A stretch of 64,000 nucleotides of DNA from Clostridia bacterium (GTDB taxonomy: Bacteria; Bacillota; Clostridia; UMGS1883): NCBI GenBank assembly GCA_045545055.1, contig JAZQAB010000070.1, positions 131 to 64,130 on the forward strand, read 5' to 3'. The notes under the pieces were generated by a model. That model saw only the letters and a program-made list of their open reading frames with translations. It made no database searches and was not told the DNA's origin. A program made the position numbers and the translations under genes. Position 1 is the stretch's first letter, and each line of letters opens with the position of its first letter. Below are positions 8,776 to 47,070 of this stretch, in pieces.

Positions 8776-10851
8776 TTATTTATACAGCAGTTCTCGCTTC
8801 ATCAGACACAGATCAAATACATCTAATCGGTTATCCTTACATAAATTGGCAGCCTGCCATTGTGATAGGTGTGTATCAGGTACAGCAAGAAGCCACTTCT
8901 GTAATAATACAATATCGGCTATATCCAATACGCCGTCACCGTTCACATCGCCTTTAACATAAGTATATGGTTTCCACAAATCGCCAAGCCAATTTTTACG
9001 TTGATTGATGTATTTTCGGACAATATCAACTGAATCCATAAATGTTGCACCACTTGATGAACCGAATACACAGTAAGATGCGCCGCCGTAGGTATGCCAC
9101 CGAGCATTGCTCATCTCTGCCGAGGACTGGATGCTCTCAGCCATTTGCGTGAGATATGGTTTCTCACTTTCGGTCAGTGATTGCAGGAAAGGATCAAATC
9201 GTTCAAAATATATCTCAGCCACACGCTTTACAAAATCTTCATTCTTGTAAAGCTGTCCGATCCAACTGATACCAACAGTCGGGCGCCCGCTGCCCGATGA
9301 GGATGTTTTACCGCCGTCCTCATATCCGTGTATGGGGAAATAGGCGGCAAACAGATTATCAGGCTTGTAGGAATATCCACTATTACCATCTGAATTGATA
9401 CGCTGAGTAGGGAAATTGTTATAGCTGAGGTCAAAATCCCAAGCAGGGCTGAAATGCAGCTTGCCGTCACCGGTGAGGTCAGAATCCTTCCAAAGAAAGA
9501 AGCTGGAATATGTTGCATCAATATTCTCGCTGATCTCCTGCACAAGATAGGCTATGATAAACGAATCCTCGTCAAGATACTCAGTATAGTGCTTTCCTTT
9601 GGCGTTATATCCAGTATCAGAGTATATCGCATCTTCCATATCCTGACCGAAGGAACGGATATACTCGACCTGTTCCTTTGAAGCATATTCTGGTCCGTCT
9701 ATTCCGATTGCCTGTCCTCTTGAGGTTACAAATCCACTCTGACACTTGTGTCCGTATCTGTTCCATTGCTGAAACTGCAAAAGATAACCGCCTGTTATAT
9801 CACCGGGATTATTAGGTATATCATAGTATTTATAGCTGTTTTCCTTATATTCGCCCGCGCTGTCAGCACCAACGACCTTTTGTGCATACCCATCGAGATC
9901 ACGGCTGTTCAACTTCTCCGTCACTTCTTCAAGATCACGGATATTGATACGATTTTTCTGTATCTGTACCCGTTCATAGAGCTGATAAGTGCCACGATAA
10001 GAACCGTCAGCATAAAGATCAACAAAAACAGAATCCATAACACATTCCATTCCTGCTGCCTTGCACATTTCTTCTGTCAGTTTATTCCTAAGCATAGAGT
10101 GATCGAGATAATTCGCCAATAAAGTCCATTTCTTCGCCTTTCCCATACCATAAAGGTTTTCTTTTTGTGGGAGTTTCAGATTATATGGCTTCTTCTTGCT
10201 GTAATCCCATGATGAATTACCGTGAGCAGTAAGTTTCTCATAAGCTCCGCTATACTCAGTGCTACCGTCAGCATTCAGCATGATAGTTGTTCCTGTTTCG
10301 GTAATATTGCGGTTTTCATCAAGTGCATCTGTTCCGCCGTGTGAAGTTGAGAGATAGATACAGCCGATATTGGACTGCATTATTTTCAGTTTACCGCAGT
10401 CTTTATCTCCGACTGTAATCTGAAAGGTATCATCATCACCGAGCAAAGAAGTCGTTTCTCCCGATTTAACAGGCTGCCCGTTGAGATATATCGTATCATC
10501 GGCAGAATATGTGATAACAAGACTATCACGGTCAGCCGTTACGGGAAGAAATATATAGCGGCAATCGTCCCATTCGCTGTACCACCAATCCGTATAATCA
10601 AGGTCTGTCACTATATTGGGAGACAGATTGCTCACTTCAAAAGAAGAAACAGGAATATCGCTGTAATATAATGCATCTGCCTCTGAAAGCCCGTAGCTTT
10701 CCCCTTTTGCCCCGTCAAGTTCTATCAGGTCTTTTGATCTGTCGTATGGTTTATAATCATCAGCATAAGCGATGAAACTGCTATGTGAAAGCAGTCCTAA
10801 AATCGAAACAACCAATCCTGATGCAAGAAAAAATGACTTTATACGCTTCAT
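8776..10851 (-). CDS. secreted CotH-family (kinase-like) protein with C-terminal dockerin
   Basis: Signal peptide. CotH-like core (KKKPYNLKL, KKWTLLANYLDHSMLRNKL). C-terminal GDVNGDGVLDIADIVLLQKWLL ... NLCKDNRLDVFDLCLMKREL dockerin. Confidence 0.78.
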   Translation of the reverse strand: MKRIKSFFLASGLVVSILGLLSHSSFIAYADDYKPYDRSKDLIELDGAKGESYGLSEADALYYSDIPVSSFEVSNLSPNIVTDLDYTDWWYSEWDDCRYIFLPVTADRDSLVITYSADDTIYLNGQPVKSGETTSLLGDDDTFQITVGDKDCGKLKIMQSNIGCIYLSTSHGGTDALDENRNITETGTTIMLNADGSTEYSGAYEKLTAHGNSSWDYSKKKPYNLKLPQKENLYGMGKAKKWTLLANYLDHSMLRNKLTEEMCKAAGMECVMDSVFVDLYADGSYRGTYQLYERVQIQKNRINIRDLEEVTEKLNSRDLDGYAQKVVGADSAGEYKENSYKYYDIPNNPGDITGGYLLQFQQWNRYGHKCQSGFVTSRGQAIGIDGPEYASKEQVEYIRSFGQDMEDAIYSDTGYNAKGKHYTEYLDEDSFIIAYLVQEISENIDATYSSFFLWKDSDLTGDGKLHFSPAWDFDLSYNNFPTQRINSDGNSGYSYKPDNLFAAYFPIHGYEDGGKTSSSGSGRPTVGISWIGQLYKNEDFVKRVAEIYFERFDPFLQSLTESEKPYLTQMAESIQSSAEMSNARWHTYGGASYCVFGSSSGATFMDSVDIVRKYINQRKNWLGDLWKPYTYVKGDVNGDGVLDIADIVLLQKWLLAVPDTHLSQWQAANLCKDNRLDVFDLCLMKRELLYK

Positions 10852-11006
10852 TGTATCCCTCCGTCCTACTTTTATTATACTTTCTCTTGAATATTAAATC
10901 AATAGATTTTATATATCTTCCTATATTTGGAATATGTCAAACTACTTCTATATATTAGACGCATAATTTCTAACAAAACACTAAGTTGTCAACTGATTCG
11001 TATTGA

Positions 11007-11518
11007 TTAGTGTTTATATATTCCAACAATGACTTGACGCTGTGTCCCATCATCGGTGCAGGATATGACCGTAATCCTATTGTCTCCGAAGCCGTTCAGT
11101 ACCCATGTATCATTAGGCTCAACGGTTCTATACTCAGTAACAATATACAGATAACGTGTGCGATTATCATCTGTATCAACGAGATACATCTCATCGCCGA
11201 TCTGAATCTGGTCAAGGTCATTGAATATCTCAGCATATATCGTGCTGTATGTCCTGCAATACAATAGTTGCCCTTGCCGAGTGCGCCTGTTCCCTCAAAA
11301 TGTCCTGCTGATACTTGCAGAGCCTTTGCGTCCGTCCCCTCAAGCACAGGCACGTTGATATTCAAGCGAGGGATCTCGAAGTTTATGTTGCTGTTGAGCA
11401 GTTTACGAAGATATAGCTCTCTGTTGATCCTTTTGTATCCATAGAATGAAAGAATACCGATACCGCATACAATCATGAGAATGCCTATAATCCGAATTAT
11501 CTTTTGCTTCTTTTTCAT
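11007..11518 (-). pseudogene. small sortase, frameshifted (1-nt deletion near 11248)
   Basis: Two overlapping ORFs (11096..11518 and 11007..11264) together align with the intact paralog at 45224..45736. The paralog reads GGACATAACAGCACA where this copy reads GGACATACAGCACG, just after the catalytic His codon. Confidence 0.8.
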
Positions 11519-11572: not shown

Positions 11573-12589
11573 TTATTTGTCTTTCTTTTTGCTCTTAGCA
11601 ATCAATGCTGTACCTGTTACTGTCATAAGAGCTGCAAGTCCTGTAATCGCTTTGTGTATGTTGGAATAGCCTGTCTGCGGAAGGATTGAGTCATCGCTCT
11701 TATCAGGCGTTTCGCCAGTGCCTTCCATTACTAAAATCGTAATTTCATCAGCATCAATGCTCTTTTCGCTGATAAAATTCTTGAACATATCTTCCTGTTC
11801 AGGGTGAACATAGTAGTAAGATAAGATTACCTTGCCGGACGGCTCATCAGCACCCACGATTACATCAGCCAACTGTTTTTCTTTGATGAAGTCATTCAGC
11901 ATGGCAATGATAGTCTCATGATCGGTAATTAAGCTGTTTTCCTCCTTATCGGGAACTTCGGCAGCACCTTCCATTACTAAAATCGTAATTTCATCGGAAT
12001 CAATGTTCTTTTCGCTGATAAAGCTCTTGAATATATCTTCCTGTTCAGGGTGAACATAGTAGTAAGATAAGATTACCTTGCCGGACGGCTCATCATCACC
12101 CACGATCACATTAGCCAACTGATTTTCCTTGATGAAGTCATTCAGCATGGCGATGATAGTTTCATGATCGGTGATTAATTCAGTGTTTTCTTCATGGATT
12201 AGAATGAAGAAAACCAAATCAAGATTGATTCCATTATCAGAACAGTATGCTTTAGCTGCGTCTATGTCCTGCTGCTTTTCGCTTCCGAAGATAACAAGTT
12301 TCTCTCTTTTAGCAACATAAATGGTATCTGCATCCAGAATGTTATTTCGCAGGGCTTCACAGATTGCTTCAAGTTCTTCGTTGATAATATCTGTCGGCGC
12401 TGCGATTACATTTGGGATATTTGTATCCGTTTCGACACTTATTCCGTCAGGAATATACGCATCTGTAGTTCTAACTTCCTCGGATACATTATCTGCATCG
12501 GGTGAATATGCGGCCTCTGCAAATGCTGTGATTTGAGCCGGTGCTGCCAGCAAGAGCAAAGAGGCAATAAATGCGATAGTTTTCTTCAT
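11573..12589 (-). CDS. LPQTG cell-wall-anchored surface protein with internal 82-aa tandem duplication
   Basis: Signal peptide. C-terminal LPQTG, hydrophobic segment and KSKKKDK tail. A 246-bp direct repeat has copies offset 11891 vs 12137. Confidence 0.8.
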   Translation of the reverse strand: MKKTIAFIASLLLLAAPAQITAFAEAAYSPDADNVSEEVRTTDAYIPDGISVETDTNIPNVIAAPTDIINEELEAICEALRNNILDADTIYVAKREKLVIFGSEKQQDIDAAKAYCSDNGINLDLVFFILIHEENTELITDHETIIAMLNDFIKENQLANVIVGDDEPSGKVILSYYYVHPEQEDIFKSFISEKNIDSDEITILVMEGAAEVPDKEENSLITDHETIIAMLNDFIKEKQLADVIVGADEPSGKVILSYYYVHPEQEDMFKNFISEKSIDADEITILVMEGTGETPDKSDDSILPQTGYSNIHKAITGLAALMTVTGTALIAKSKKKDK

Positions 12590-12743: not shown

Positions 12744-13901
12744 TCATTCTTCATAAATGACTTCTTCCGGATTGAAAATTTGTGGCGTAGTATCTCGTTC
12801 AATATTGTCAATTCCGAGCCTGTCAGCTATTTCTCTTGCTTTATCTTCACCGATATAGAATGTGTATGCCCATTCCATAATATTGGTCTTGATATAGCCG
12901 TCTTCAGTAACGGCAAACGATTTGTTACTGATGCCCAACATATCAACGTTTGTTGAAATACTGAACAATTTTCTATGAGTGTCGCTATCAAATCTGTTCT
13001 CGCAGTCCCGATACTTATTCAGAAGCTCTACAATAATAGCTCTATCATAATCTGTAACAAAAGTCCTGTCATCTTCAAGAGACAATGTGCCGAACGCAAT
13101 AGTGTTGTTCAAATCAAGAGCATCTACCAACTCGCCAAGCGTTGCAGGAGAATAGCATCTGTTGGTGTAGACATAGTAGCTGTCATATCCGTTGAATTTC
13201 ACAGCAACGGCACAATTAGTTGAAATACCATTGATGCTGAACACTTCTGCGTTAATGATATGGATTTTATCCTCATAAACATCCTGACCTTCCATTGTGA
13301 CAGTACCGAGGATACCACCGATATGATTGCCTTCGATACTATGTTCCCTTGTGCTGTATGCGATGCCATTAAGGTCAAATTCCATGAATTGAGTGGGAAG
13401 TGTTCTCTCGTCCCATTTTGGAATAGTTACTGCTTCAGTTCTACTTTCCGCCGTTTGCTGTTCTGAGGGTGCTGTATTGCTAATTGTCGGTTCTATGCCT
13501 GTTGTCTCTGCATTATCGTTCTCTGCCGGTGTAAGAGTCGTTTTTTCAGTTGAGTGAGTGCTGTTTTCAAGTTTCTCAGCAGATGTGCTTTCTTTTACGG
13601 CGTTTTCAGTGGATTCTGTCGGGTGCTCTGTACCAGTGCTATCGTTTGTGCTATTTTCTGTATCTGAGGTAGTTGTCGGAGTTTCAGTATTGATTATAGT
13701 ATTATTATCGATTGTAGGAATTCCGCCCTGAGACAATTTCAAATTTCTGACTGCAAGTATGACAGTGCAAAATACGAGCATAGATGAAGCACCTGCCGTT
13801 ACTCTTTTGATGTTGCGATTGCGAAGCATGAGCTTTTTCTGCTCTTCATCCCGTATTCTTAGTACGGTTGCAGCAATCTGCTCAGTATTCTTCATAAACA
13901 A
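12744..13901 (-). CDS. single-pass membrane protein, putative anti-sigma factor
   Basis: The start overlaps the sigma gene stop by 20 nt. Short cytoplasmic N-terminus, one TM (GASSMLVFCTVILAV), Thr/Glu-rich linker and a roughly 230-aa extracytoplasmic domain. Confidence 0.55.
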   Translation of the reverse strand: MFMKNTEQIAATVLRIRDEEQKKLMLRNRNIKRVTAGASSMLVFCTVILAVRNLKLSQGGIPTIDNNTIINTETPTTTSDTENSTNDSTGTEHPTESTENAVKESTSAEKLENSTHSTEKTTLTPAENDNAETTGIEPTISNTAPSEQQTAESRTEAVTIPKWDERTLPTQFMEFDLNGIAYSTREHSIEGNHIGGILGTVTMEGQDVYEDKIHIINAEVFSINGISTNCAVAVKFNGYDSYYVYTNRCYSPATLGELVDALDLNNTIAFGTLSLEDDRTFVTDYDRAIIVELLNKYRDCENRFDSDTHRKLFSISTNVDMLGISNKSFAVTEDGYIKTNIMEWAYTFYIGEDKAREIADRLGIDNIERDTTPQIFNPEEVIYEE

Positions 13902-14436
13902 AGCCCTCCTTTTCGAGTTCTGATTTTAACGTCTTTTTGGCTCGGTATAATAAGTCACCGATCTGTCTTTTTGACTTCTTCATAATCCTGGCAATTTCAG
14001 CAGTGTTAAAATCTTCAAAATACATCAAGTACAATACTTGTGCATATTCAGGTTTCAACCGTCTCATAGCTAGGTGCAGCTCAATTTTCTGTTCTTCTTT
14101 CAGATATTGTCGTTCAATGTCTTCCTCATCCGACATCTGAAAGGCTTCATCAATCGGAAAGTCAGCCATTTTTGAGCTTTTACGCAAGTAATCCAGCGCA
14201 CAATGCTTTGCAATGCTGTACAGCCATGTCTTAAAATAGATCTTACCGTTGAATCTGGGTTTCTTTACAGCTAATCTTACAAAAGTCTCCTGCATCAGTT
14301 CTTCGGCAACACATATATTATCAACAATACTGTTCAGGTACAAAGTCAGACCCTCATGGTATATATCAATGATCTCTATTATTCCATTGTCATCACCATC
14401 AAGGTAACGGCGGTAGCGATCCGCATCGTTCCCCAT
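13882..14436 (-). CDS. ECF-like sigma-70 family RNA polymerase sigma factor
   Basis: 184 aa. Region 2-like segment FKTWLYSIAKHCALDYLRK and region 4 HTH (FEDFNTAEIARIMKKSKRQIGDLLYRAKKTL). Confidence 0.85.
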   Translation of the reverse strand: MGNDADRYRRYLDGDDNGIIEIIDIYHEGLTLYLNSIVDNICVAEELMQETFVRLAVKKPRFNGKIYFKTWLYSIAKHCALDYLRKSSKMADFPIDEAFQMSDEEDIERQYLKEEQKIELHLAMRRLKPEYAQVLYLMYFEDFNTAEIARIMKKSKRQIGDLLYRAKKTLKSELEKEGFVYEEY

Positions 14437-14481: not shown

Positions 14482-14512
14482 TTAATCGCACGAACTCCTG
14501 ATTTTTCGCAGT
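14482..14512 (-). promoter_or_regulatory. candidate ECF-type promoter (ACTGCGA-N17-CGATTAA on the minus strand)
   Basis: The same bipartite motif occurs twice in the 42.7-42.9 kb divergent region of the paralogous module. Confidence 0.4.
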
Positions 14513-14699
14513 GATTTTCAAAAAATTTTCGATTTATGATAATTTACTTTATTATAGACGATTATAAGCCAAAAAGCAATAAAGGAGATGCTTCTACTAT
14601 GAAACATCTCCTTTTATACTGATATGTTATTATCGAATTTGATTCTGCTTGTTGCTTGGGGTTACTTAATGGTTATTTGACATTAGTGAAAGGTATCCT

Positions 14700-14984
14700 C
14701 TGTTGATTGGCTCTGCAAGTTGCGGAAATAAGCGACTTCATAACATTCAGGAGGTTGCAGAGTTTATCTGTGAACACGGTCGATATAATGATGTCTGTAT
14801 CAGAACGGAGGATGGTTTTGAGCTTCTGGGAACCTTTGGAATCTATATCAATAAAATCTCGGATATGGAGTACCGTGAGGAACTTCTCAAGGTGCTGATT
14901 CCGATGCAGCATGAAGTAGAAAATGCTGCGTTCTCAAATGATGAGGACATGGACGAAACCGAAGATGTGGATATGACGATGTAA
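14700..14984 (+). pseudogene. 5'-truncated duplicate of the 3' half of gene 6228..6746
   Basis: It aligns with 6489-6746 at the nucleotide and protein level (GNKRLHNIQEVAEFICEHG ... FGIYINKISDMEYREELLKVLIPMQHEVENAAFS ... DVDMTM). It lacks the N-terminal DUF4314-like half and any RBS. Confidence 0.7.
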
Positions 14985-26646: not shown

Positions 26647-27513
26647 ATGAAAAAGAAAACCATTCGCATTCTGGCGGTTGCTGTGGCAGCCGCCCTCCTT
26701 TTTGGAGGTATATATCTGCTTACAAAGGACGATATTGCACAGAAAAAAGCTGAAGGAGATCTTGCACCCTTTATGCCGTCTGTAATTATGCAGGATGCTC
26801 TGGCATATGCACCGACAGAGTCTGTAACGACTACTACAGGTACAAGCACTTCTGAAACGACATCTGAGGAAGGCACAACAAGTTCCACAACATCGGAAAC
26901 TGTTCCAAGTGTGCAGGAAAATGTTCTGTCACCTGAAATTTGTGAAGAACTGAAAGAACAGGCACAGGAACTGCAGGAAACCTATCCCGATGCCATCGGC
27001 TGGATCTATATTCCCGATACAAGCATCAACTACCCGATTATGCAGGGAGAGGACAATGATTTCTATCTTACCCATGGTACGGACGGACACAGTCTGAAAT
27101 GCGGATGTATTGAACTGGATTTCCGCTGTGAAAACCGCTTTCAGAACAACTTCAACATCCTGTACGGCCACAACATGAAGAACGGCTCAATGTTCGCAAA
27201 CGTATGCAGATTCAAGGAAAGAAGCTATTATGACAGTCATCCCTACGGCTGGGTGTATACCTCCGATGCTGTGTACAGACTGGACTTTTTCTCTGTGGCT
27301 GTGACAGATTGGCATGATGAAATCTACAATGGTTTTCGCAGCCTTGACGAATGGACACCGCATCTGAAAGAGATTTCCCGAATCTATGAGGAAGTCGAGC
27401 TGACAGAACAGGACAGGCTTGTACTGCTTTCAACCTGTTCCTATGAATTTGACAATGCCAGAACTGTGCTGATAGGCAGGCTGGTGGAAATGGAGAGTGA
27501 TATGAATGCTTAA
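26647..27513 (+). CDS. srtB: class B sortase
   Basis: N-terminal TM. ILYGHNMKNGSMF His motif. LVLLSTCSY Cys motif. NARTVLIGR Arg. Confidence 0.85.
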   Translation: MKKKTIRILAVAVAAALLFGGIYLLTKDDIAQKKAEGDLAPFMPSVIMQDALAYAPTESVTTTTGTSTSETTSEEGTTSSTTSETVPSVQENVLSPEICEELKEQAQELQETYPDAIGWIYIPDTSINYPIMQGEDNDFYLTHGTDGHSLKCGCIELDFRCENRFQNNFNILYGHNMKNGSMFANVCRFKERSYYDSHPYGWVYTSDAVYRLDFFSVAVTDWHDEIYNGFRSLDEWTPHLKEISRIYEEVELTEQDRLVLLSTCSYEFDNARTVLIGRLVEMESDMNA

Positions 27514-40827: not shown

Positions 40828-40855
40828 AACGCTCTGCACATCAATGCAGAGCGTT
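40828..40855. terminator. bidirectional terminator between convergent genes
   Basis: AACGCTCTGCA / TGCAGAGCGTT perfect 11-bp stem between the relaxase stop (40787) and the minus-strand stop (40863). Confidence 0.7.
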
Positions 40856-40862
40856 ACTGTTA

Positions 40863-42197
40863 TTAACCATAGTTGTATTTTTGAGCCTCTTCGCTTGTAT
40901 CTTCAAGATATGCAACACAATTCAGCTCGGTTCCGTTTGCGAATTCTTCCAGACCAAAGCCAGAAATACCGTAAAAGTCTCTTTTCTTACCATAGAAAAA
41001 TCTATAGTTCTCTGGCAGATTGGTAATTCTGATAGCATATGTAATATTACCGTTATAGCTGTCAGGGCTGTCAAAGGAATACTGAAGATTTTCTATGTAC
41101 AATTCCTCCGTCTCTGATGTGTTCCATGCTGCAACAACATCGCCAGTCTGAAGATTAAACAGTTCACACTCAAGATTGTGTATAGACACATTGCTGATAA
41201 TATCCAATACTTTTAATCTCAATGAGTATGTACCTTCCAATGGTATACTATTTACAGGTTCTTGTTCCTTAGATAACAGTATATCAATGTTTCTATCTCC
41301 TTCAAAATAGCCGGAGATATTGTATTCAATGAGATTTTGACCACTAAAACTATACTCAGATGGAAGTGTATCGACAACCACTATGTATCTGTATTCCGTT
41401 TCTTCCTTGATAAAACTTGCATAATATGAGGTGTGATCAGATGAATTCCATTCTGCAACTACTATACCATCACCAACATCTGCATATGTTACATCGTCTA
41501 TCCATTCAATCTTTTGTTGTATCAATCTGGCATTAATTGAATTTACAGCTTCGAAACTATTATCATCAAGAAAACTGATATGAAATCCATAGGAATTCGG
41601 ATCAGGTATGATTCCGGGATCTGTATTGCTTGTAGCAGTAGTAGTAGTTGGACGATCTGGAGGTGGATCTACAGTTGATGAAATCTTAGGTGGGGTAGTT
41701 TGTTTGGGTGCAGTTGTGGTAACCGGAGATACCGGAGTTACTACTGTTTCTGTAACAGACGGCAATGTTTCAGGCGATTCCGTCGTTACATTATTCTCAC
41801 CTGTTGTTACAGGCTGAGTGACAGGATTATTGGTTGCAGATTGATTTGTTGCTTCAGTTGTAACAGTAATTATATTATTGGTATCTGCATCTGTTGTGGT
41901 AACTTTAGGAACAGATGATGTATCATTCACATCTGCATCAGGAACATCTGTAGAGTCGATAATAACATTGTCGGGGGGCTGTACCAGCAGATCGCTGTTT
42001 AATACGTTTTTTAATTTATCATTATTCCATACCCCAAGGCAAACTATTATAGCAGCACACAACCCTGAAACGGTTAAGGAAACACGTTTTATGGTGGCTA
42101 TGCGTTTCATTTTTCTCTGTTCCTTTATTTCAACTTCTCTGGCAACTATCTCAGCCATTTTTTTATAGTCCATCATACGTATATCCCTCCTTTTCAA
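40863..42197 (-). CDS. single-pass membrane protein, putative anti-sigma factor whose ectodomain copies the adjacent adhesin
   Basis: The start overlaps the sigma stop by 35 nt. One TM (VSGLCAAIIVCLGVW) and a Thr/Pro linker. The ectodomain matches the first two domain types of ORF 43005..45167. The last 100 aa or so are about 90 percent identical to the adhesin repeats. Confidence 0.6.
   Translation of the reverse strand: MKRRDIRMMDYKKMAEIVAREVEIKEQRKMKRIATIKRVSLTVSGLCAAIIVCLGVWNNDKLKNVLNSDLLVQPPDNVIIDSTDVPDADVNDTSSVPKVTTTDADTNNIITVTTEATNQSATNNPVTQPVTTGENNVTTESPETLPSVTETVVTPVSPVTTTAPKQTTPPKISSTVDPPPDRPTTTTATSNTDPGIIPDPNSYGFHISFLDDNSFEAVNSINARLIQQKIEWIDDVTYADVGDGIVVAEWNSSDHTSYYASFIKEETEYRYIVVVDTLPSEYSFSGQNLIEYNISGYFEGDRNIDILLSKEQEPVNSIPLEGTYSLRLKVLDIISNVSIHNLECELFNLQTGDVVAAWNTSETEELYIENLQYSFDSPDSYNGNITYAIRITNLPENYRFFYGKKRDFYGISGFGLEEFANGTELNCVAYLEDTSEEAQKYNYG
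40866..41174. repeat. inverted copy of the adhesin repeat core (vs about 43521-43821, 44103-44403, 44682-44982)
   Basis: The reverse complement aligns by eye at roughly 85-90 percent nucleotide identity with the three direct copies. Confidence 0.75.
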
Positions 42198-42717
42198 TTT
42201 CCTTTTTTAGCGCAGCCTTGGCACGGTACAAAAGATCAATTATTTGCTTGTTCGATTTGCCCATAATTTCAGCAGTCTCGCTGGTATTGAAGTCTTCAAA
42301 GAATATAAGATACAAAACTTGGCTATATTCAGGTTTCAGTTTTTTGATAGTTTGCCGCAGTCTGATTCGCTCTTTGTTTTTTATGTATTCACGTTCCAGG
42401 TTTTCTCCATCAGAGATATCAAGTGCGTCATCGATAGAAATTTCGGTTACTCGCTTGTTTTTCCTTATATAGTCAAGGGCAGTATATCTTCCAATAGAAA
42501 AAAGCCATGTTTTAAAAGAACACTTTCCTTTGAAATTTGGTTTCTCATAAAACAACTTAACAAAGGTATCTATCGTAAGTTCTTCTGCATGATGAATATC
42601 TCCGACTATATTGTTTAGGTAAAAAACAAGTCCGTCCTTGTAATCTCGGATTATTTCCTCAATCGCATCTTTATCTCCTGAGAGAAAACGGCTATAACAA
42701 TTGGCACCGTTATCCAT
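42163..42717 (-). CDS. ECF-like sigma-70 family sigma factor (paralog of 13882..14436)
   Basis: 184 aa and about half identical to the other copy. FKTWLFSIGRYTALDYIRK and FEDFNTSETAEIMGKSNKQIIDLLYRAKAAL. Confidence 0.85.
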   Translation of the reverse strand: MDNGANCYSRFLSGDKDAIEEIIRDYKDGLVFYLNNIVGDIHHAEELTIDTFVKLFYEKPNFKGKCSFKTWLFSIGRYTALDYIRKNKRVTEISIDDALDISDGENLEREYIKNKERIRLRQTIKKLKPEYSQVLYLIFFEDFNTSETAEIMGKSNKQIIDLLYRAKAALKKEIEKEGYTYDGL

Positions 42718-42772
42718 TTTTCTCTCCTTTCAAATTCGATGAGTAAAAACTCAAAAATCATCTCTCATATAT

Positions 42773-42804
42773 TTAGTCGAAAAAATAAGTGTCAGAATCG
42801 CAGT
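42773..42804 (-). promoter_or_regulatory. candidate ECF-type promoter for the sigma/anti-sigma operon
   Basis: The minus strand reads ACTGCGATTCT-N14-CGACTAA. Confidence 0.45.
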
Positions 42805-42887
42805 CATTTGAGAAGAAAAAACGATTTTTTCATCTACAACTATATTATAGCACATTTTCGGATTTTCTTCAAAATTTTTTTTAAAAA

Positions 42888-42919
42888 ACTGCGATTCTCG
42901 ATGATAAAAATACGACTAA
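42888..42919 (+). promoter_or_regulatory. candidate ECF-type promoter for the adhesin/sortase operon
   Basis: The plus strand reads ACTGCGATTCT-N14-CGACTAA. Boxes and spacing are identical to the divergent copy 84 bp away. Confidence 0.45.
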
Positions 42920-43004
42920 TGAGTGAAGGGTTAAAGCGAGCTCCCCCTTGTAGTTCCGGAATCATCTCTCAAAACTATACCTGAATGAAAAAGGAGGAAT
43001 ATTC

Positions 43005-45167
43005 ATGAAAAAATCCAGAATACTGAGTTTATTGCTCTCCGCAGCAATCTCACTAACACCATTATGCAGTATTTCTGCATCAGCCGAGGAATCTTCTTAT
43101 TCCTTTAACATCTGTTTTATTGCGGAAGAATCAGAGGAATACGTTGAAAATGTAAATGCCAAACTGATTCAGCAAGCGATTGAATGGACAGATGATGAAC
43201 ATTTTGTATATGTCGGAGATGAAATTATTGTTTCCGAGTGGAACACTAATAACGCAAACCCATTCATTACAGAGTCCTTCACTGACAACTGGCACGATTA
43301 TGCATATCGTGTAGTAGTGGACGAATTGCCTGACGGCTACATTTTCAATTCAAGCAAACGTGTCGAAAGTGGAATTTCCGGTTATCTTGATGGAGAAGTC
43401 AAAGTGTCAATCAAACTCGCTGAAGGCGAAATTACCGAAAACACTACTCCTCTGGAAGGTACATATTCATTAAAGCTTAACGTCATGGATATTGTCAGAA
43501 ATGAAAAGATAGCAGGTTTAGACTGCGAACTTTTCAACATTCAGACCGGTGATGTCGTTGCTGCATGGAACACATCTGAAACAGAGGGAATGTATATTGA
43601 AAATCTTCAGTATTCATTTGACAGAGCAGACAGCTACAACGGCAACATTACATATGCCATCAGAATTACAAATCTGCCTGAAAATTATCGTTTCTTCTAT
43701 GGTAAAACCAGAGATCAATACGGAGTATCCGGATTTAGTTTAGAGGAATTCGTCAACGGAACAAATCTGTCGTGTACAGTTTATCTTGAAGATACAAGCG
43801 AAGATGCTCCGAAATACACTTATGTGTCTACTCCTCAGGCTAATATCACAACAGTTACAACCACTACAACAATAGCTGAACCGTCACCACTAACTACCAC
43901 AATTACAGATGAAAACGGAAATTTCATTGACGAGAACGGCAATATTGTTACAACAAGTGAAACATCTAAAACAGAGCCGCAGACAATAATAACAACAACT
44001 ACTTCTGGTCCGGTTGACCTGAACGACATCCCTCTGGAAGGAACATATTCACTGAAACTCAGTGTTATGGATATCGTCAGAAATGAGAAGATCGCAGGAT
44101 TGAACTGTGAACTATTCAATCTCCAGAGTGGTGATGTTGTTGCTGCATGGAACACATCAGAAACTGAAGAAATGTATATTGAAAATCTTCAGTATTCCTT
44201 TGACAGACCTGACAGCTATAACGGCAACATTACATATGCCATCAGAATTACAAATCTGCCAGAGAATTATAGATTTTTCTATGGAAAGAGCAGAGACTTT
44301 TACGGAATTTCCGGCTTTGGTCTGGAAGAATTTGCAAACGGCACTGAACTGAAATGTGTTGCTTATCTTGAAGATACGAGCGAAGAAGCTCCAAAGTACA
44401 CTTACATATCAACTCCGCAGGGTAACACTACAACAGTTACAACTACTACAACAATAGCTGAATCTGCATCATCAACTACCACAGTTACAGATGAACACGG
44501 AAATTACATCGACGAGAATGGTAATATTATTACAACAAGCGATACTTCTAAGACAGAAACTCAGACAACGACAACTACCACATCTGCTTCTTTTGACTTG
44601 AATGACATCCCTCTGGAAGGAACATATTCACTGAAACTCAGTGTTATGGATATCGTCAGAAATGAGAAGATTGCAGGCTTGAACTGCGAATTATTCAACA
44701 TCCAGACTGGTGATGTCGTTGCTGCATGGAACACATCAGAAACTGAAGAAATGTATATTGAAAATCTTCAGTATTCCTTTGACAGACCTGACAGCTATAA
44801 CGGTAACATTACATATGCCATCAGAATTACCAATCTTCCTGAGAATTACAGATTTTTCTACGGTAAAAGCAGAGAGTTTTACGAAATTTCCGGCTTTGCT
44901 CTGGAAGAATTCGCAAATGGCACTGAGCTGAACTGTGTTGCTTATCTTGAAGATACAAGCGATGATGCTCCGAAGTACACTTATGTTACTACTCCACAGG
45001 ATAGCACAACAACAACTACTACAACTACAGCTCAGACTGAGAATAACGAAGAAACACTTCCTCAGACAGGTTACTCTTCCATCTATAAAGTTGTTGCAGG
45101 GCTTGCATCTCTTATGACATTAAGTGGAGCTGCAATTCTTGTTAAGACAAGAAAAAAAGATGAATAA
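43005..45167 (+). CDS. LPQTG-anchored surface protein with three 193-aa repeats
   Basis: Signal peptide. Domain order A-B-linker-B-linker-B. C-terminal LPQTG, hydrophobic segment and KTRKKDE tail. Confidence 0.85.
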   Translation: MKKSRILSLLLSAAISLTPLCSISASAEESSYSFNICFIAEESEEYVENVNAKLIQQAIEWTDDEHFVYVGDEIIVSEWNTNNANPFITESFTDNWHDYAYRVVVDELPDGYIFNSSKRVESGISGYLDGEVKVSIKLAEGEITENTTPLEGTYSLKLNVMDIVRNEKIAGLDCELFNIQTGDVVAAWNTSETEGMYIENLQYSFDRADSYNGNITYAIRITNLPENYRFFYGKTRDQYGVSGFSLEEFVNGTNLSCTVYLEDTSEDAPKYTYVSTPQANITTVTTTTTIAEPSPLTTTITDENGNFIDENGNIVTTSETSKTEPQTIITTTTSGPVDLNDIPLEGTYSLKLSVMDIVRNEKIAGLNCELFNLQSGDVVAAWNTSETEEMYIENLQYSFDRPDSYNGNITYAIRITNLPENYRFFYGKSRDFYGISGFGLEEFANGTELKCVAYLEDTSEEAPKYTYISTPQGNTTTVTTTTTIAESASSTTTVTDEHGNYIDENGNIITTSDTSKTETQTTTTTTSASFDLNDIPLEGTYSLKLSVMDIVRNEKIAGLNCELFNIQTGDVVAAWNTSETEEMYIENLQYSFDRPDSYNGNITYAIRITNLPENYRFFYGKSREFYEISGFALEEFANGTELNCVAYLEDTSDDAPKYTYVTTPQDSTTTTTTTTAQTENNEETLPQTGYSSIYKVVAGLASLMTLSGAAILVKTRKKDE
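43449..45000 (+). repeat. tandem coding repeat, period 579-582 bp, about 2.7 copies
   Basis: CCTCTGGAAGG(A/T)ACATATTCA recurs at 43449, 44031 and 44610. Copies 2 and 3 are nearly identical. Confidence 0.85.
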
Positions 45168-45178: not shown

Positions 45179-45210
45179 AGAGCGCTACTCTCGATAGTAG
45201 CGCTCTTTTC
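45179..45210 (+). terminator. hairpin/attenuator between the adhesin and sortase genes
   Basis: AGAGCGCTACT / AGTAGCGCTCT stem then TTTT. It lies just upstream of the sortase ATG. Confidence 0.55.
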
Positions 45211-45223
45211 GCTATTGAAGGAT

Positions 45224-45736
45224 ATGAAAAGAAGAACAGTACGAATTATCGGCGTTATTATGATTACTTGCGGTGCTTTGATATTGTCTGTTTTCGCATA
45301 TAAACGAATCAGTCGAGAACTATATTTGCAAAAGCTTTTGGAAGAAAATGTGATATTTGAAATCCCAAGTTTAAATATCAGAGTTCCCGTCCTTGAGGGA
45401 ACTGATTCGAAAGCACTTCAAGTATCAGCCGGACATTTTGAGGGAACGGGTTCACCCGGTCATGATAATTACTGCATTGCAGGACATAACAGCACAATAT
45501 ATGCTGAAATTTTCAATGATCTTGATAACATCCAGATTGGTGATGAAATGCATCTGATTGATACAGATGATAAAAGAACCAACTATATCTATATTGTTAC
45601 GGAGTATACTATCGTTGATCCCCACAATGTTAGTGTTCTTAACGATTATGGCGATGACAGACTGACTGTTATATCGTGTACCGACGATGGAGAGTACCGA
45701 CAGGTAGTTGTCGGAATCCTCAAAGAAAATAAATGA
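45224..45736 (+). CDS. small sortase (intact paralog of pseudogene 11007..11518)
   Basis: ATG at 45224. N-terminal TM. CIAGHN His motif. LTVISCTD Cys motif. YRQVVVG Arg. Confidence 0.85.
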   Translation: MKRRTVRIIGVIMITCGALILSVFAYKRISRELYLQKLLEENVIFEIPSLNIRVPVLEGTDSKALQVSAGHFEGTGSPGHDNYCIAGHNSTIYAEIFNDLDNIQIGDEMHLIDTDDKRTNYIYIVTEYTIVDPHNVSVLNDYGDDRLTVISCTDDGEYRQVVVGILKENK

Positions 45737-45756
45737 TATATCGAAAGGAGCTTATT

Positions 45757-47070
45757 ATGAAATTTACAATGATGTTTAACAAATTTTTAGCAGGAGTTAT
45801 TTCCTTAACAAGTGTAATTGGTTTCGGCAGCTTTCCACATAACGTAGCCGAAGATGCTGTGTTTGAGGTTCAAGCAGCTGAAAGCAATAAAGAAATATTT
45901 GATGCTGAATGTTTTTTTGTTTATACAGGAACATATGGCGAGAAGCAATTACCGATCTTTGAGTACTATTACCCATCAAACGACATTTCAGGAACAAATT
46001 ATAAACATCGTAAAAGTTACTTTAAAGGGGATGTTCCGAATGATCTGGAATATGGAGATATTTTTGTAACTGCCGGCGATGTTGTTACAACCTTAGATGA
46101 AAACACAAGAAATACTTACGAACTTGATCAAAGCACTGAATTACAAATCGTTGGCAATTGCTCTGAACTAATGGAAACTCAATCTTTGCAGGTTGTTGAC
46201 AAAACCTATAGTGGAATGACGATGCCACCTGTTTATGCTGTTTTCACATTTCATCTGAGTGATGAGAACGAAAACAAGTATTATTATTCATTTGATAGCT
46301 TTGGAAGTACTCTTGGAATGAACATATCAGGAGCAACCGAGGGAGATACACTGTCTTTTGCTGTATATAATGATAGCGTGATTATCCCTGTAACGCCCAA
46401 GCAGAACGCAGATACAGCAACAGGCGATGTGAATGATGATGGCGAATTTACTATATCGGATGTGGTATTGCTTCAGAAGTGGTTGCTAGCTGTTCCTGAG
46501 ACTCATCTTGCCAATTGGAGAGCTGCAAATTTTTGTGTCGATGAAAGACTCGATGCTTTCGATTTGTGTCTGATGAAAAGACAACTAATAGAAAAACTCA
46601 ACGAAAATGTCAAGTCATCTTTCGAATTGCAAAGTGTTTACAATACACAAACCAATGTCGACAGTCATAATGAATGGCAAGGATATATTGCACATTCTGA
46701 AAACGAATTAAATGAAATAATACAAGAAAACGAAGGATTAAACGGACAGGAGATTTTATTAGAAGGCATTGACAAGAATTGCTTTGAAGATAAATCCATA
46801 ATTATTATTTACAGCCCGTTCTGTCCAAGTAATCAATACTCAATAATTGATGATATTCTTGTTGCAAATGAAACCCTTAACGTTTCTACCACAACAAAAA
46901 AGCCTGATATGCCACGACTTGATATGTGCTACAGAAGGTATCTTTATATCGTAGATAAGAATGAAGTTGCTGATGCAAGTAATATCACTTTTAATGATAC
47001 ATCTTCACGCTATGGAGATATTGATGAAAAAGATGTAGTAAATTGGTTCAACGCATGGTGTGAAGCTTAA
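45757..47070 (+). CDS. secreted protein with an internal dockerin module
   Basis: ATG at 45757 after GAAAGGAG, then a signal peptide. GDVNDDGEFTISDVVLLQKWLL ... NFCVDERLDAFDLCLMKRQL is the same dockerin subtype as in the CotH protein. The roughly 170-aa C-terminal domain is unrecognised. Confidence 0.7.
   Translation: MKFTMMFNKFLAGVISLTSVIGFGSFPHNVAEDAVFEVQAAESNKEIFDAECFFVYTGTYGEKQLPIFEYYYPSNDISGTNYKHRKSYFKGDVPNDLEYGDIFVTAGDVVTTLDENTRNTYELDQSTELQIVGNCSELMETQSLQVVDKTYSGMTMPPVYAVFTFHLSDENENKYYYSFDSFGSTLGMNISGATEGDTLSFAVYNDSVIIPVTPKQNADTATGDVNDDGEFTISDVVLLQKWLLAVPETHLANWRAANFCVDERLDAFDLCLMKRQLIEKLNENVKSSFELQSVYNTQTNVDSHNEWQGYIAHSENELNEIIQENEGLNGQEILLEGIDKNCFEDKSIIIIYSPFCPSNQYSIIDDILVANETLNVSTTTKKPDMPRLDMCYRRYLYIVDKNEVADASNITFNDTSSRYGDIDEKDVVNWFNAWCEA

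What the first reader, a model, noticed from the sequence alone, without database searches (positions are those of the whole stretch)
8776..47070. Five-gene surface module present twice on the ICE, once co-linear and once with the regulator pair inverted
Seen: block 1 is all on the minus strand. It comprises sigma 13882..14436, anti-sigma candidate 12744..13901, LPQTG protein 11573..12589, sortase 11007..11518 and dockerin protein 8776..10851. Block 2 holds the same five gene classes (42163..42717, 40863..42197, 43005..45167, 45224..45736, 45757..47070), but its sigma/anti-sigma pair is inverted relative to the rest. The sigmas and sortases are clear paralogs. The anchored proteins and dockerin proteins are unrelated apart from LPQTG and the shared dockerin subtype. 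Inference: the recurrence suggests a functional unit, in which a regulated sortase-anchored protein is paired with a dockerin-bearing partner. This may be a mobile way to decorate the cell surface or cellulosome. I do not recognise this as a described system.
Basis: partly seen in the sequence, partly recalled or inferred. Interest (0 to 1): 0.62.

Follow-up and report, generated by a model that had tools for sequence, protein, structure and literature searches.

The report
Sigma-controlled surface-protein cassettes on an ICE
A conjugative element in a gut Ruminococcus-like bacterium carries two related gene cassettes, each with its own sigma/anti-sigma switch, a wall-anchored protein, a sortase and a dockerin-tagged protein; they belong to a large, apparently undescribed family of regulator-plus-surface-protein cassettes that mostly control dockerin proteins.

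Summary
Both blocks contain the five gene classes at the stated coordinates, and block 2 has its regulator pair inverted. One correction: the block 1 sortase is a pseudogene here, through a 1-bp deletion just after the catalytic His.

The blocks are functional units. A bipartite motif, ACTGCGA-N17/18-CGAYTAA, occurs three times in the 2.43-Mb genome: upstream of sigma 1, sigma 2 and the block 2 adhesin operon. Diverged relatives keep it. RNA-derived contigs from public metatranscriptomes cover all five block 2 genes and leave a gap between the two divergent motifs.

The same five classes recur on other mobile elements, once with the CotH-dockerin gene moved upstream of sigma.

The five-gene set is not a fixed system. 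About 1,900 relatives of the sigma exist. In the contexts sampled, almost all sit beside dockerin-protein genes and few beside a sortase (2 of 80 metagenome loci).

Structure models show CnaB/pilin-like domains (block 2) and small alpha/beta repeats (block 1), not cohesins. The proposed direct pairing of anchored and dockerin proteins is therefore unsupported.

Best reading: mobile ECF sigma/anti-sigma-controlled surface-display cassettes. This is a new variant of a known kind.

The parts
14482..14512 (-). Candidate sigma-dependent promoter of block 1 (ACTGCGA-N17-CGATTAA), upstream of sigma 1
   Evidence: It is one of only 3 exact matches in the window and in the 2.43-Mb genome; 0 are expected in shuffles. 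Lineage variants lie upstream of sigma and of CotH-dockerin in L085, L084 and L086.
14581..14614 (-). Terminator-like hairpin just upstream of the block 1 promoter, which would insulate it from read-through
   Evidence: 14-bp stem followed by a T-run.
13882..14436 (-). ECF-type sigma factor 1 (184 aa)
   Evidence: Pfam Sigma70_r2 plus r4_2. NCBIfam TIGR02937 is over its cut-off. It is 54% identical to sigma 2.
12744..13901 (-). Anti-sigma candidate 1 (likely start ATG at 13895): ~31-aa cytoplasmic N-terminus, TM at aa 32-49, Thr/Ser-rich linker, ectodomain of unknown fold
   Evidence: The start overlaps the sigma stop by 14 nt. The N-terminus plus TM are conserved across the family. There are no Pfam, NCBIfam or PDB hits. 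It has no similarity to the block 1 cargo.
11573..12589 (-). LPQTG-anchored protein 1 (338 aa): signal peptide and three small alpha-beta-beta-alpha-beta units, of which two are 91%-identical 234-nt repeats
   Evidence: Pfam Gram_pos_anchor. Direct repeat D1. AF2 model, mean pLDDT 68. Foldseek finds PrgH-type ring-building and BON-like folds, with no cohesin among the 50 listed hits. The domain is rare: 12 proteins in 5.8 billion, either LPQTG-anchored or dockerin-bearing.
11007..11518 (-). Sortase 1, a pseudogene in this genome (1-bp deletion at about 11247-11249, just after the catalytic His)
   Evidence: The two halves hit PF04203 in different frames. The alignment with intact L035 shows CATAAC changed to CATAC, and L060 has the same deletion. 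Run X41 carries the intact allele.
8776..10851 (-). Secreted CotH kinase-like protein with a C-terminal type I dockerin (691 aa)
   Evidence: Pfam CotH at 113 bits and Dockerin_1 at 31.4 bits. Orthologues at 78-80% keep company with the sigma 1 lineage in L084-L086.
6495..6737 (+). Left copy of the 243-nt direct repeat (3' half of the DUF4314 gene) that brackets the block 1 cargo segment
   Evidence: 81% identical to 14709-14951. The protein fragments are 76% identical.
14709..14951 (+). Right copy of the bracketing direct repeat (a truncated DUF4314-like ORF)
40863..42197 (-). Anti-sigma candidate 2 (likely start ATG at 42176): short N-terminus, TM, Thr/Pro-rich linker, and an ectodomain made of A and B domains copied from the adhesin
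   Evidence: aa 205-443 are 60-85% identical to units of the LPQTG protein. This paralogy is kept in L004, L077 and L078. The start overlaps the sigma 2 stop by 14 nt.
42163..42717 (-). ECF-type sigma factor 2 (184 aa)
   Evidence: Pfam and NCBIfam hits. A single ~1.9-kb RNA contig spans sigma 2 plus anti-sigma 2 in 3 of 4 metatranscriptome runs (X25-X27); X28 covers it in three pieces.
42773..42804 (-). Candidate sigma-dependent promoter of the sigma 2/anti-sigma 2 operon
   Evidence: Exact motif. RNA contigs end at 42756-42783, just downstream of it. It is conserved with a different spacer in L004.
42888..42919 (+). Candidate sigma-dependent promoter of the adhesin-sortase-dockerin operon
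   Evidence: Exact motif. In X25-X27 the RNA contigs begin at 42944, and none of the four runs covers 42784-42943. It is conserved in L004.
43005..45167 (+). LPQTG-anchored adhesin-like protein 2 (720 aa), with domain order A-B-B-B
   Evidence: Pfam Gram_pos_anchor. The AF2 model of A-B has pLDDT 77.6. Foldseek top hits are the B. anthracis TIE protein, SpaA pilin, Cna and SdrD B repeats, at E down to 4e-8, with no cohesin among the 50 listed hits.
45179..45206 (.). Palindromic 11-bp-stem hairpin between the adhesin and sortase genes (possible attenuator or processing site)
   Evidence: RNA contig depth is lower downstream of it, but this is a poor measure.
45224..45736 (+). Sortase 2 (170 aa from the ATG that aligns with the sortase 1 start), intact, with His/Cys/Arg present
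   Evidence: PF04203 at 84 bits. TIGR01076 is over its cut-off, but no class model is. It is the only intact sortase of this type in the genome.
45757..47070 (+). Dockerin protein 2: a unique N-domain, a dockerin (aa 231-285 of the 445-aa ORF that starts at 45733) and a ~150-aa C-terminal 'X' domain
   Evidence: Pfam Dockerin_1. About 100 of the 120 listed homologues, nearly all dockerin-bearing, match only a C-terminal part of the query; in the one aligned (P0169) this is the whole dockerin-X dyad, 55% identical over 223 aa.
47115..47142 (+). Intrinsic terminator at the end of the block 2 cargo operon
   Evidence: 11-bp stem followed by a T-run.

Best explanation
Each block is a self-contained surface-display cassette carried as cargo on a mobile element and controlled by a sigma/anti-sigma pair.

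Proposed mechanism:
1. An ECF-type sigma factor is held at the membrane by a single-pass anti-sigma. The anti-sigma has a ~31-aa cytoplasmic N-terminus, one TM, a Thr/Pro-rich stalk and a variable ectodomain.
2. An extracytoplasmic cue acting on the ectodomain releases the sigma.
3. The sigma transcribes its own operon and the cargo genes from promoters of the type TGCGA(A/T)-N-CGAYTAA.

The cargo is one protein anchored covalently to the wall through LPQTG by a cassette-encoded sortase, and one secreted protein carrying a type I dockerin. The dockerin protein would plug into cohesins encoded elsewhere in the host genome.

In block 2 the sigma operon and the cargo operon are divergent, each with its own promoter copy. 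In block 1 a single promoter precedes the co-linear array.

The two blocks are two members of a large Ruminococcus-lineage family of such sigma/anti-sigma cassettes. In that family the cargo is freely exchanged. It is usually dockerin proteins, and only sometimes an LPQTG protein plus sortase.

What is shown and what is inferred:
- Shown: gene classes, paralogy, promoter motifs and their conservation, transcript presence for block 2, recurrence on other elements.
- Inferred: the anti-sigma function, the nature of the signal, sortase specificity, docking to host cohesins.
For: Promoter motif:
- It occurs exactly 3 times in the window and in the whole 2.43-Mb genome, each time in front of a sigma or cargo operon.
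- Both divergent copies are kept, with different spacers, in diverged L004.
- Lineage-specific variants precede both the sigma gene and the CotH-dockerin gene in L085, L084 and L086. They face both directions in L082 and L083.

RNA, four metatranscriptome runs:
- In three runs one contig spans sigma 2 plus anti-sigma 2 (40869 to 42756-42783); in the fourth, three pieces cover it.
- In three runs a contig starts at 42944 and runs into the adhesin gene; the fourth covers the adhesin from 43170.
- Fragments cover the sortase (one run) and the dockerin gene (all four).
- No run covers 42784-42943, the stretch between the two motifs.

Anti-sigma architecture:
- The N-terminus and TM are conserved, and the start overlaps the sigma stop by 14 nt in both blocks and in most called loci (11 nt in L071).
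- 69 of 77 coupled downstream ORFs in metagenome loci have the TM.

Recurrence of the gene sets:
- L001, L002, L004, L077-L079 (block 2 type) and L035, L060 (block 1 type).
- L085 has the block 1 set in permuted order: CotH 80%, sigma 74%, anti-sigma 36%, LPQTG protein 52-65%, sortase about 83% identical.
- L094 shows another order.

Support for docking to host cohesins:
- The host has cohesin modules on C107 and C122.
- Several proteins encoded on other contigs carry the same dockerin subtype.

The sigma belongs to the ECF superfamily.
Against: - The anti-sigma has no recognisable anti-sigma domain, and its cytoplasmic part is only ~31 aa. Its role rests on synteny and architecture.
- No promoter motif lies in front of lpq1. 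Upstream of the window's CotH gene only a -10-like part is seen, so block 1 operon structure is inferred.
- The RNA evidence comes from assembled contigs of a related strain in a digester community. Depth is not quantitative and DNA carry-over cannot be excluded. RNA evidence for block 1 is weak.
- The block 1 sortase is broken here.
- Both the sigma tree and the neighbourhood counts show that the sortase/LPQTG part is gained or lost repeatedly. 'Five genes' is therefore a configuration, not a defined system.
Confidence: 0.62

Rival explanations
1. Miniature scaffold-and-client pair. The LPQTG protein is the wall-anchored receptor for the co-encoded dockerin protein, like ScaE, which is anchored by sortase and binds dockerins through its cohesin.
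For: - The two gene classes stay together on different elements.
- Ruminococcal cohesins are often too divergent for sequence detection (PMC11557425).
- Both dockerins are of one subtype.
Against: - Neither LPQTG protein gave a Pfam Cohesin hit at E <= 0.01.
- The AF2 model of adhesin 2 A-B matches CnaB/pilin folds, with no cohesin among the 50 listed hits.
- Anchored protein 1 is made of small alpha/beta units, not a beta-sandwich.
- The two anchored proteins are unrelated, yet the dockerins are 71% identical, which argues against a co-evolved receptor.
- Relatives of anchored protein 1 themselves carry a dockerin in place of LPQTG.
- The same dockerin subtype sits on proteins encoded on other contigs of the host genome.
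Confidence: 0.07
2. Mating adhesins. The anchored proteins and sortases serve conjugation by promoting donor-recipient contact, like the LPXTG aggregation substances of enterococcal plasmids. The dockerin genes are bystanders.
For: - The cassettes are consistently found on mobile elements, often next to relaxase genes.
- Adhesin 2 has a CnaB/pilin-like fold typical of adhesins.
Against: - The ICE already has a dedicated SpaA-repeat adhesin with a class B sortase inside the transfer region.
- The same cassettes sit on small mobilisable elements that lack a T4SS.
- Related sigma/anti-sigma cassettes are chromosomal in R. flavefaciens and control dockerin proteins.
- The CotH-dockerin gene has its own copy of the promoter motif in L085 and L084.
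Confidence: 0.13
3. Coincidental cargo. The two blocks look alike because sortase-substrate pairs, ECF sigma pairs and dockerin genes are all abundant in these genomes and accumulate in ICE cargo regions, without functional coupling among all five genes.
For: - The sortase family is mostly found without the sigma (58 of 63 loci).
- The sigma family is mostly found without a sortase (78 of 80 loci).
- At least 3 gains or losses are needed on the sigma tree.
- Block 1 looks like an accretion bracketed by a duplicated gene fragment.
Against: - The promoter motif links sigma and cargo operons.
- Transcripts of all five block 2 genes are present together.
- The set is retained across 52-85% protein divergence and across a change of gene order.
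- The anti-sigma ectodomain is a paralogue of the adhesin in every block 2-type locus.
Confidence: 0.15

Closest known systems
SigI/RsgI sigma/anti-sigma pairs of Clostridium (Acetivibrio) thermocellum and relatives
   Same: - Multiple paralogous pairs of an alternative sigma and a membrane anti-sigma sit beside genes for dockerin-bearing or cell-surface proteins.
- The anti-sigma ectodomain resembles a module of the regulated machinery. From my own knowledge (not checked here), the CBM3 of RsgI mirrors the CBM3 of the scaffoldin. Here the CnaB-like A-B domains mirror the adhesin, and relatives carry a dockerin.
- The sigma genes are autoregulated.
   Different: - The sigma here is a 184-aa two-domain ECF-type protein, not sigma-I.
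- The anti-sigma gave no Pfam hit at all, so no RsgI-type domain was detected. Its cytoplasmic part is only ~31 aa.
- The cassettes are carried on mobile elements, and some include a private sortase.
- RsgI homologues were reported absent from R. bromii (PMC12663171).
Classical Firmicutes ECF sigma/anti-sigma pairs (SigM, SigV, SigW, SigX with their membrane anti-sigmas)
   Same: - Two-domain sigma; the best NCBIfam hits are the SigM, BldN and SigX models, all below their cut-offs.
- A co-transcribed single-pass anti-sigma.
- A promoter copy in front of the sigma gene itself.
   Different: - No zinc-binding or other recognisable anti-sigma domain.
- The regulon appears to be a small adjacent set of surface-protein genes rather than an envelope-stress regulon.
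- The -35/-10 elements (TGCGA / CGAYTAA) are specific to this family.
Sortase-anchored cohesin proteins of Ruminococcus (ScaE of R. flavefaciens; Sca2 and Sca5 of R. bromii)
   Same: Surface display combines LPXTG/sortase anchoring with dockerin-cohesin tethering in the same organism group (PMC2930009, PMC12663171).
   Different: - The anchored proteins here have no cohesin. Their folds are CnaB/pilin-like or small alpha/beta repeats.
- The cassette brings its own sortase and its own regulator.
Dedicated sortase-substrate gene pairs and pilus islands of Gram-positive bacteria
   Same: - A substrate gene with a matching sorting signal lies immediately upstream of a small membrane-anchored sortase.
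- This LPQTG-protein-then-sortase pair is common across Ruminococcus loci.
   Different: - The sortase fits no curated class model.
- Pilin polymerisation motifs were not looked for.
- Control by an adjacent ECF sigma pair and linkage to a dockerin protein are not features of those systems.
CotH-dockerin proteins of cellulosomes
   Same: The block 1 dockerin protein is a CotH kinase-like domain fused to a type I dockerin. This architecture has been reported in bacterial and fungal cellulosomes, and its role is unclear (PMC12484212).
   Different: Here, and in L071 and L084-L086, the CotH-dockerin gene is linked to a sigma/anti-sigma pair. In L084-L086 a copy of the family's promoter motif precedes it, which places it in a defined regulon.

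Membership tests
ECF (group 4) sigma-70 factors | Only regions 2 and 4 are present, and the protein is small (~180 aa) | tested here: met
   Pfam Sigma70_r2 plus r4_2 in both proteins. TIGR02937 at 91 bits against a cut-off of 42.9. No equivalog model reaches its cut-off.
ECF (group 4) sigma-70 factors | Co-transcribed cognate anti-sigma factor | tested here: inconclusive
   The downstream gene overlaps the sigma stop by 14 nt. Its N-terminus plus TM are conserved across the family. One RNA contig spans both genes. No known anti-sigma domain is detected, and binding was not tested.
ECF (group 4) sigma-70 factors | Autoregulation from a family-specific promoter in front of the sigma gene | tested here: met
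   The motif lies upstream of both sigma genes and is unique in the genome. It is conserved in relatives. RNA contig ends lie just downstream of it. Dependence on the sigma itself is inferred.
Zinc-binding (class I) anti-sigma factors | An ~80-90-aa cytoplasmic anti-sigma domain, often with HxxxCxxC | tested here: not met
   The cytoplasmic part is ~31 aa and has no His or Cys. No Pfam hit.
SigI/RsgI system | A sigma-I type sigma and an RsgI N-terminal anti-sigma domain | tested here: not met
   Neither anti-sigma candidate gave any Pfam or NCBIfam hit, so no RsgI-type domain was detected. The sigmas hit only ECF-type models.
Sortase (PF04203) transpeptidases | A sortase domain with the catalytic His, Cys and Arg in one reading frame | tested here: met
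   Met for sortase 2: 84 bits, with AGH, ISC and YRQ present. Not met for sortase 1 in this genome, because the frameshift separates the His from the Cys and Arg.
Curated sortase classes A-F | Score over the cut-off of a class model | tested here: not met
   The best class models (E, D, C) score 62-66 bits against cut-offs of 140-165. Only the generic TIGR01076 passes.
LPXTG cell-wall sorting signal | LPXTG followed by a hydrophobic stretch and a basic tail at the C-terminus | tested here: met
   LPQTG plus hydrophobic segment plus KSKKKDK or KTRKKDE. PF00746 is over its cut-off in both proteins.
Type I dockerin | A duplicated calcium-binding loop-helix module (PF00404) | tested here: met
   31.4 and 25.4 bits against a cut-off of 22.9.
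Cohesin-bearing anchoring scaffoldin (ScaE-like) | A cohesin module in the sortase-anchored protein | tested here: not met
   Neither LPQTG protein gave a Pfam Cohesin (PF00963) hit at E <= 0.01, and the whole-genome PF00963 search found no match on the window's contig C70. The AF2 models give CnaB/pilin-like and alpha/beta repeat folds, with no cohesin among the 50 listed Foldseek hits of either model. The model of protein 1 has only moderate confidence (pLDDT 68).
CotH kinase family | The PF08757 domain | tested here: met
   113 bits, spanning the whole profile. Catalytic residues were not examined.
Integrative conjugative element | Relaxase, coupling protein and T4SS ATPase | tested here: met
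   MobL relaxase, T4SS-DNA_transf/TraG-D_C, TrbL and a VirB4-like P-loop protein.
Integrative conjugative element | Integrase and defined ends | tested here: inconclusive
   The only recombinase found is the small tyrosine recombinase inside the type I R-M locus. The ends of the element were not mapped.

The most novel reading that the evidence does not exclude
The Ruminococcus lineage has its own, so far undescribed, counterpart of the clostridial SigI/RsgI system. It would be a large family of ECF sigma/short anti-sigma pairs whose ectodomains copy a module of the cargo they control. Examples are the CnaB-like adhesin domains in block 2, a domain of the divergent dockerin protein in L082, and a dockerin itself in 14 of 77 relatives. 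The cell would then sense the engagement or occupancy of its own surface machinery, for example free cohesin sites or adhesin ligand, and tune production of that component. Because each pair travels with its cargo, and sometimes with a private sortase, on ICEs, mobilisable elements and plasmids, whole regulated surface functions would be exchanged between gut Ruminococcaceae as plug-and-play cassettes.
Probability: 0.3. Interest if true: 0.8.

Novelty: new variant of a known kind. Interest (0 to 1): 0.55.

Why it matters
How ruminococci regulate their cellulosome and amylosome components is an open question. RsgI-type sensors were reported absent from R. bromii, and its regulator was called 'yet to be characterized' (PMC12663171).

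This locus offers a concrete, testable candidate: a defined sigma, a defined promoter motif, a small adjacent regulon and transcript evidence. It also shows that regulated surface proteins, complete with their anchoring enzyme, move between strains on conjugative and mobilisable elements. That bears on how fibre- and starch-degrading gut bacteria diversify their cell surfaces.

The sensor-copies-cargo design, including anti-sigma factors that carry a dockerin, would be a new sensing logic if confirmed.

Tried and rejected
- PDB sequence searches with both LPQTG proteins and anti-sigma 1 gave nothing useful; dockerin protein 2 matched only through its dockerin.
- BLASTP of anti-sigma 1 against the block 1 anchored protein gave nothing, and tblastn of anti-sigma 1 against the whole genome hit only itself. 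The 'sensor copies cargo' feature of block 2 is therefore not shown for block 1.
- I searched the 64 genomes of the host's taxonomic family for the sigma. There are no close relatives, only E of about 1e-22. The cassette is foreign to that family as sampled, and this route gave no neighbourhoods.
- The sortase tree is too poorly resolved to say whether the cassette sortases have one origin.
- I looked for a promoter motif in front of lpq1 and in front of the window's CotH gene. There is none before lpq1. Before CotH only the -10-like CGTCTAATATATAG is present, without the -35 at the right spacing.
- I looked for RNA evidence for block 1. Only short fragments at 90-95% identity were found in one bovine run.
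The site is CAT-A-CAG with no CGG, and intact alleles differ by one extra A, so it is an ordinary deletion.
- I considered L002, where three genes (a LytR fragment, DUF2079 and GT2) lie between the adhesin and the sortase. This could be an insertion or a mis-assembly and was not resolved.

Full report
**Observation**

The ten genes exist as described.
- Pfam assigns Sigma70_r2 plus r4_2 to 13882-14436 and 42163-42717.
- It assigns the LPXTG anchor to 11573-12589 and 43005-45167.
- It assigns the sortase domain to 45176/45224-45736 and to both halves of 11007-11518.
- It assigns CotH plus a C-terminal dockerin to 8776-10851.
- It finds an internal dockerin in 45733/45757-47070.

The paralogy is as stated.
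- The sigmas are 54% identical (E 9e-72).
- The sortases are about 73% identical.
- The sorting signals are 50% identical over 42 aa.
- The dockerins are 71% identical over 58 aa.
- Outside those modules the cargo proteins are unrelated.

Three corrections apply.
- The block 1 sortase is split by a frameshift. A 1-bp deletion at about 11247-11249 changes CATAAC to CATAC just after the catalytic His. An independent MAG (L060) shares it. L035 and run X41 do not.
- The element carries a third sortase, class B, with a nine-SpaA-domain adhesin inside the transfer region.
- No ICE integrase lies in the window.

**Regulation**

ACTGCGA-N17/18-CGAYTAA has exactly three matches in the window, against none in 100 shuffles. 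It also has exactly three matches in the whole 2.43-Mb assembly. They lie at 14482-14512 (minus strand, upstream of sigma 1), 42773-42804 (minus strand, upstream of sigma 2) and 42888-42919 (plus strand, upstream of the adhesin operon).

In the diverged relative L004, both divergent copies keep TGCGATT...ACGACTAA while the spacers differ.

The sigma 1 lineage uses the variant TGCGAAAAAA-N-CCGTTTAA. In L085, L084 and L086 this variant precedes both the sigma gene and the CotH-dockerin gene. In L082 and L083 the motif faces both ways in the divergent region.

Terminator-like hairpins bound the units:
- 14581-14614, just upstream of the block 1 promoter;
- 40828-40855, between the relaxase gene and anti-sigma 2;
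- 47115-47142, after the block 2 dockerin gene;
- a palindromic hairpin at 45179-45206, between the adhesin and sortase 2.

**Transcripts**

Four metatranscriptome runs from one anaerobic-digester study hold RNA-derived contigs of a close relative of block 2.
- In X25-X27 one contig of about 1.9 kb covers anti-sigma 2 plus sigma 2, from 40869 to 42756-42783. In X28 three pieces cover the same span up to 42759.
- In X25-X27 a contig begins at 42944 and runs into the adhesin gene. X28 covers the adhesin from 43170.
- Shorter contigs cover the sortase (45270-45424, one run) and the dockerin gene (45776-47045, all four runs).
- No run covers 42784-42943, the stretch between the two predicted promoters.

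This is what divergent transcripts starting just downstream of each -10 element would give. It also argues that the contigs derive from RNA rather than from carried-over DNA. Contig depth is not quantitative, so I claim only that the transcripts are present together. Evidence for block 1 is limited to short fragments at 90-95% identity.

**The anti-sigma candidates**

Both start 14 nt before the sigma stop codon. They have about 31 cytoplasmic residues, a TM at 32-50, a Thr/Pro/Ser-rich stalk and a variable ectodomain. This N-terminal architecture is conserved across relatives. It is present in 69 of 77 coupled downstream ORFs in a metagenome sample. No known anti-sigma domain is detected, so the function is inferred.

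The ectodomain of anti-sigma 2 (aa 205-443) is 60-85% identical to the A and B units of the adhesin. The same paralogy holds in L004, L077 and L078. A weaker case links the L082 anti-sigma to its divergent dockerin protein (32% over 200 aa). In the alignment, adhesin-type and anti-sigma-type A domains group by type across loci, so the duplication predates their divergence. Anti-sigma 1 has no detectable similarity to its cargo.

**Are the anchored proteins cohesin scaffolds?**

- The AF2 model of adhesin 2 A-B (pLDDT 77.6) is two all-beta domains. Foldseek matches them to the B. anthracis TIE protein, SpaA shaft pilin, Cna and SdrD B repeats (E down to 4e-8). No cohesin is among the 50 listed hits.
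- Anchored protein 1 (pLDDT 68) consists of three small alpha-beta-beta-alpha-beta units that resemble PrgH-type ring-building and BON domains.
- That domain is rare: 12 proteins among 5.8 billion. In relatives it is attached either by LPQTG or by a dockerin.

The proposed direct pairing of anchored and dockerin proteins therefore has no support. Instead, the host has cohesins on C107 and C122. Several proteins encoded on other contigs (they look like a heparinase-like protein, a beta-helix enzyme and a D-Ala-D-Ala carboxypeptidase, judged by eye from the sequences) carry the same dockerin subtype at 55-70% identity. The cassette dockerin proteins can therefore plausibly use the host's own scaffold.

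In dockerin protein 2, about 100 of the 120 listed homologues, nearly all dockerin-bearing, match only a C-terminal part of the query. In the one aligned (P0169) the match is the whole dockerin-X dyad, 55% identical over 223 aa.

**Recurrence elsewhere**

From the sortase side, 63 genome loci were examined.
- The small sortase is widespread in Ruminococcus, commonly just downstream of an LPQTG protein.
- Only five loci have all five classes: L001, L002 and L004 (block 2 type), and L035 and L060 (block 1 type).

From the sigma side, the family has 1,887 hits.
- Members at 84-85% identity to sigma 2 sit in complete block 2-type sets on a different element, with a tyrosine integrase, NikA, AAA_25 and Mob_Pre (L077-L079).
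- Members at 64-68% sit divergent from dockerin, trypsin-like or unknown secreted proteins on a Rep3/MobA plasmid-like contig (L080, L081) and on contigs with further dockerin or ICE-type accessory genes (L082, L083), without a sortase.
- Members at 57-65% are in chromosomal-scale contigs. In R. flavefaciens and Ruminococcus sp. XPD3002 they lie beside dockerin proteins, including a CotH-dockerin in L071. A third, unnamed contig (L073) has glycosyltransferase neighbours and no dockerin gene.

From the side of anchored protein 1:
- L085 has CotH-dockerin (80%), then sigma (74%), anti-sigma (36%), LPQTG protein (52-65%) and sortase (about 83%), next to a different relaxase. This is the same five classes in a different order.
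- L084 and L086 keep CotH-dockerin, sigma and anti-sigma. The repeat protein there carries a dockerin instead of LPQTG, and there is no sortase.

In 80 metagenome loci:
- 21 of 23 loci with adequate flanks have a dockerin gene within two genes of the sigma.
- Only 2 of 80 have a sortase. One is L094, with the order sigma, anti-sigma, dockerin protein, one unrelated gene, LPQTG protein, sortase.
- L087 and L088 have sigmas 95-98% identical to sigma 1 but a 721-aa dockerin protein as cargo.

On the sigma tree the five-gene state needs at least three changes.

**Synthesis**

The two blocks are real, regulated units and are evolutionarily related. They are two configurations within a large family of sigma/anti-sigma cassettes with exchangeable surface-protein cargo, not a fixed five-gene system.

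The most likely mechanism is release of the ECF sigma from its membrane anti-sigma on an extracytoplasmic cue. The sigma then transcribes its own operon and the adjacent cargo. The cargo is displayed by the cassette's own sortase (LPQTG) and by docking to host cohesins.

Carrying a private sortase makes sense here. Every sortase domain found in this 93%-complete assembly lies on this contig. Because the two sorting signals are so alike and sortase 2 is intact, sortase 2 could plausibly serve the block 1 protein despite the sortase 1 frameshift. This is an inference.

Block 1 with a few small ORFs is bracketed by an 81%-identical 243-nt direct repeat of the 3' half of a DUF4314 gene. That pattern suggests acquisition by recombination between related elements.

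**Comparison with known systems and novelty**

The closest functional analogue is the SigI/RsgI system of cellulosomal clostridia, but membership fails on both defining proteins. The sigma is a generic ECF member. The anti-sigma fits no known class.

I found no description of ECF sigma, dockerin and sortase cassettes in Ruminococcus in the searchable literature. That library omits most subscription journals.

I rate this a new variant of a known kind, of moderate to good interest. The interest lies mainly in giving a testable handle on surface and cellulosome regulation in ruminococci and on its horizontal spread.

Noticed in passing
L097:8542-10869, L099:11652-14216, L128:2769-4952 (and 14 of 77 coupled ORFs in L087-L166): Many anti-sigma candidates of this family in R. 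flavefaciens-type contigs themselves carry a type I dockerin, confirmed by Pfam over its cut-off. A membrane sensor that can dock to a cohesin suggests sensing of scaffold occupancy. I found no description of this in the searchable literature.
   Followed up: partly
whole genome; window 11007-11518, 26647-27513, 45224-45736: All sortase-domain hits in this 93%-complete assembly lie on the ICE contig. Giant LPSTG and LPETG proteins are encoded on C21, C119 and C126 with no sortase gene found outside this contig. Either the housekeeping sortase is in the missing 7%, or the host depends on element-borne sortases.
   Followed up: partly
window 6495-6737 and 14709-14951: A 243-nt direct repeat, 81% identical, made from the 3' half of the DUF4314 gene brackets block 1 plus several small ORFs. 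It looks like a recombination scar from cargo accretion.
   Followed up: partly
L002:6403-9960: In one block 2-type relative, three genes (a LytR_cpsA_psr fragment, a DUF2079 membrane protein and a GT2 glycosyltransferase) sit between the adhesin and the sortase. Whether this is an insertion or a MAG mis-assembly was not resolved.
   Followed up: no
window 11699-12178; P0121-P0125: The repeat number of anchored protein 1 varies between strains: 1, 2 or 3 copies of the ITDHET...VMEG unit. The same domain is attached by a dockerin instead of LPQTG in other proteins.
   Followed up: partly
window 45757-47070: The dockerin plus a ~150-aa C-terminal domain of dockerin protein 2 looks like a conserved dyad. 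Most listed homologues, whose other regions carry LRR, Big_2 or SH3 domains, match only a C-terminal part of it, and P0169 matches the whole dyad. This recalls the X-dockerin dyads of R. flavefaciens, but with X after the dockerin.
   Followed up: partly
window 40869 and 40757 (loose ends in runs X25 and X27): In the digester metatranscriptomes the block 2 relative is joined to different sequence just beyond the anti-sigma stop codon. The cassette therefore sits in another context there.
   Followed up: no
L071:5158-11109; L084-L086: CotH-dockerin genes repeatedly sit next to sigma/anti-sigma pairs of this family, including in an R. flavefaciens chromosome. This places the enigmatic cellulosomal CotH proteins in a defined regulon.
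   Followed up: partly
window 47166-55966: A WYL/WCX regulator, a type I R-M system (hsdR, hsdM, hsdS), a small tyrosine recombinase and a second inverted hsdS follow block 2. I did not examine it further.
   Followed up: no
window 1380-4459: Two further dockerin proteins (671 and 271 aa) with a different dockerin subtype lie to the left of the presumed element.
   Followed up: no
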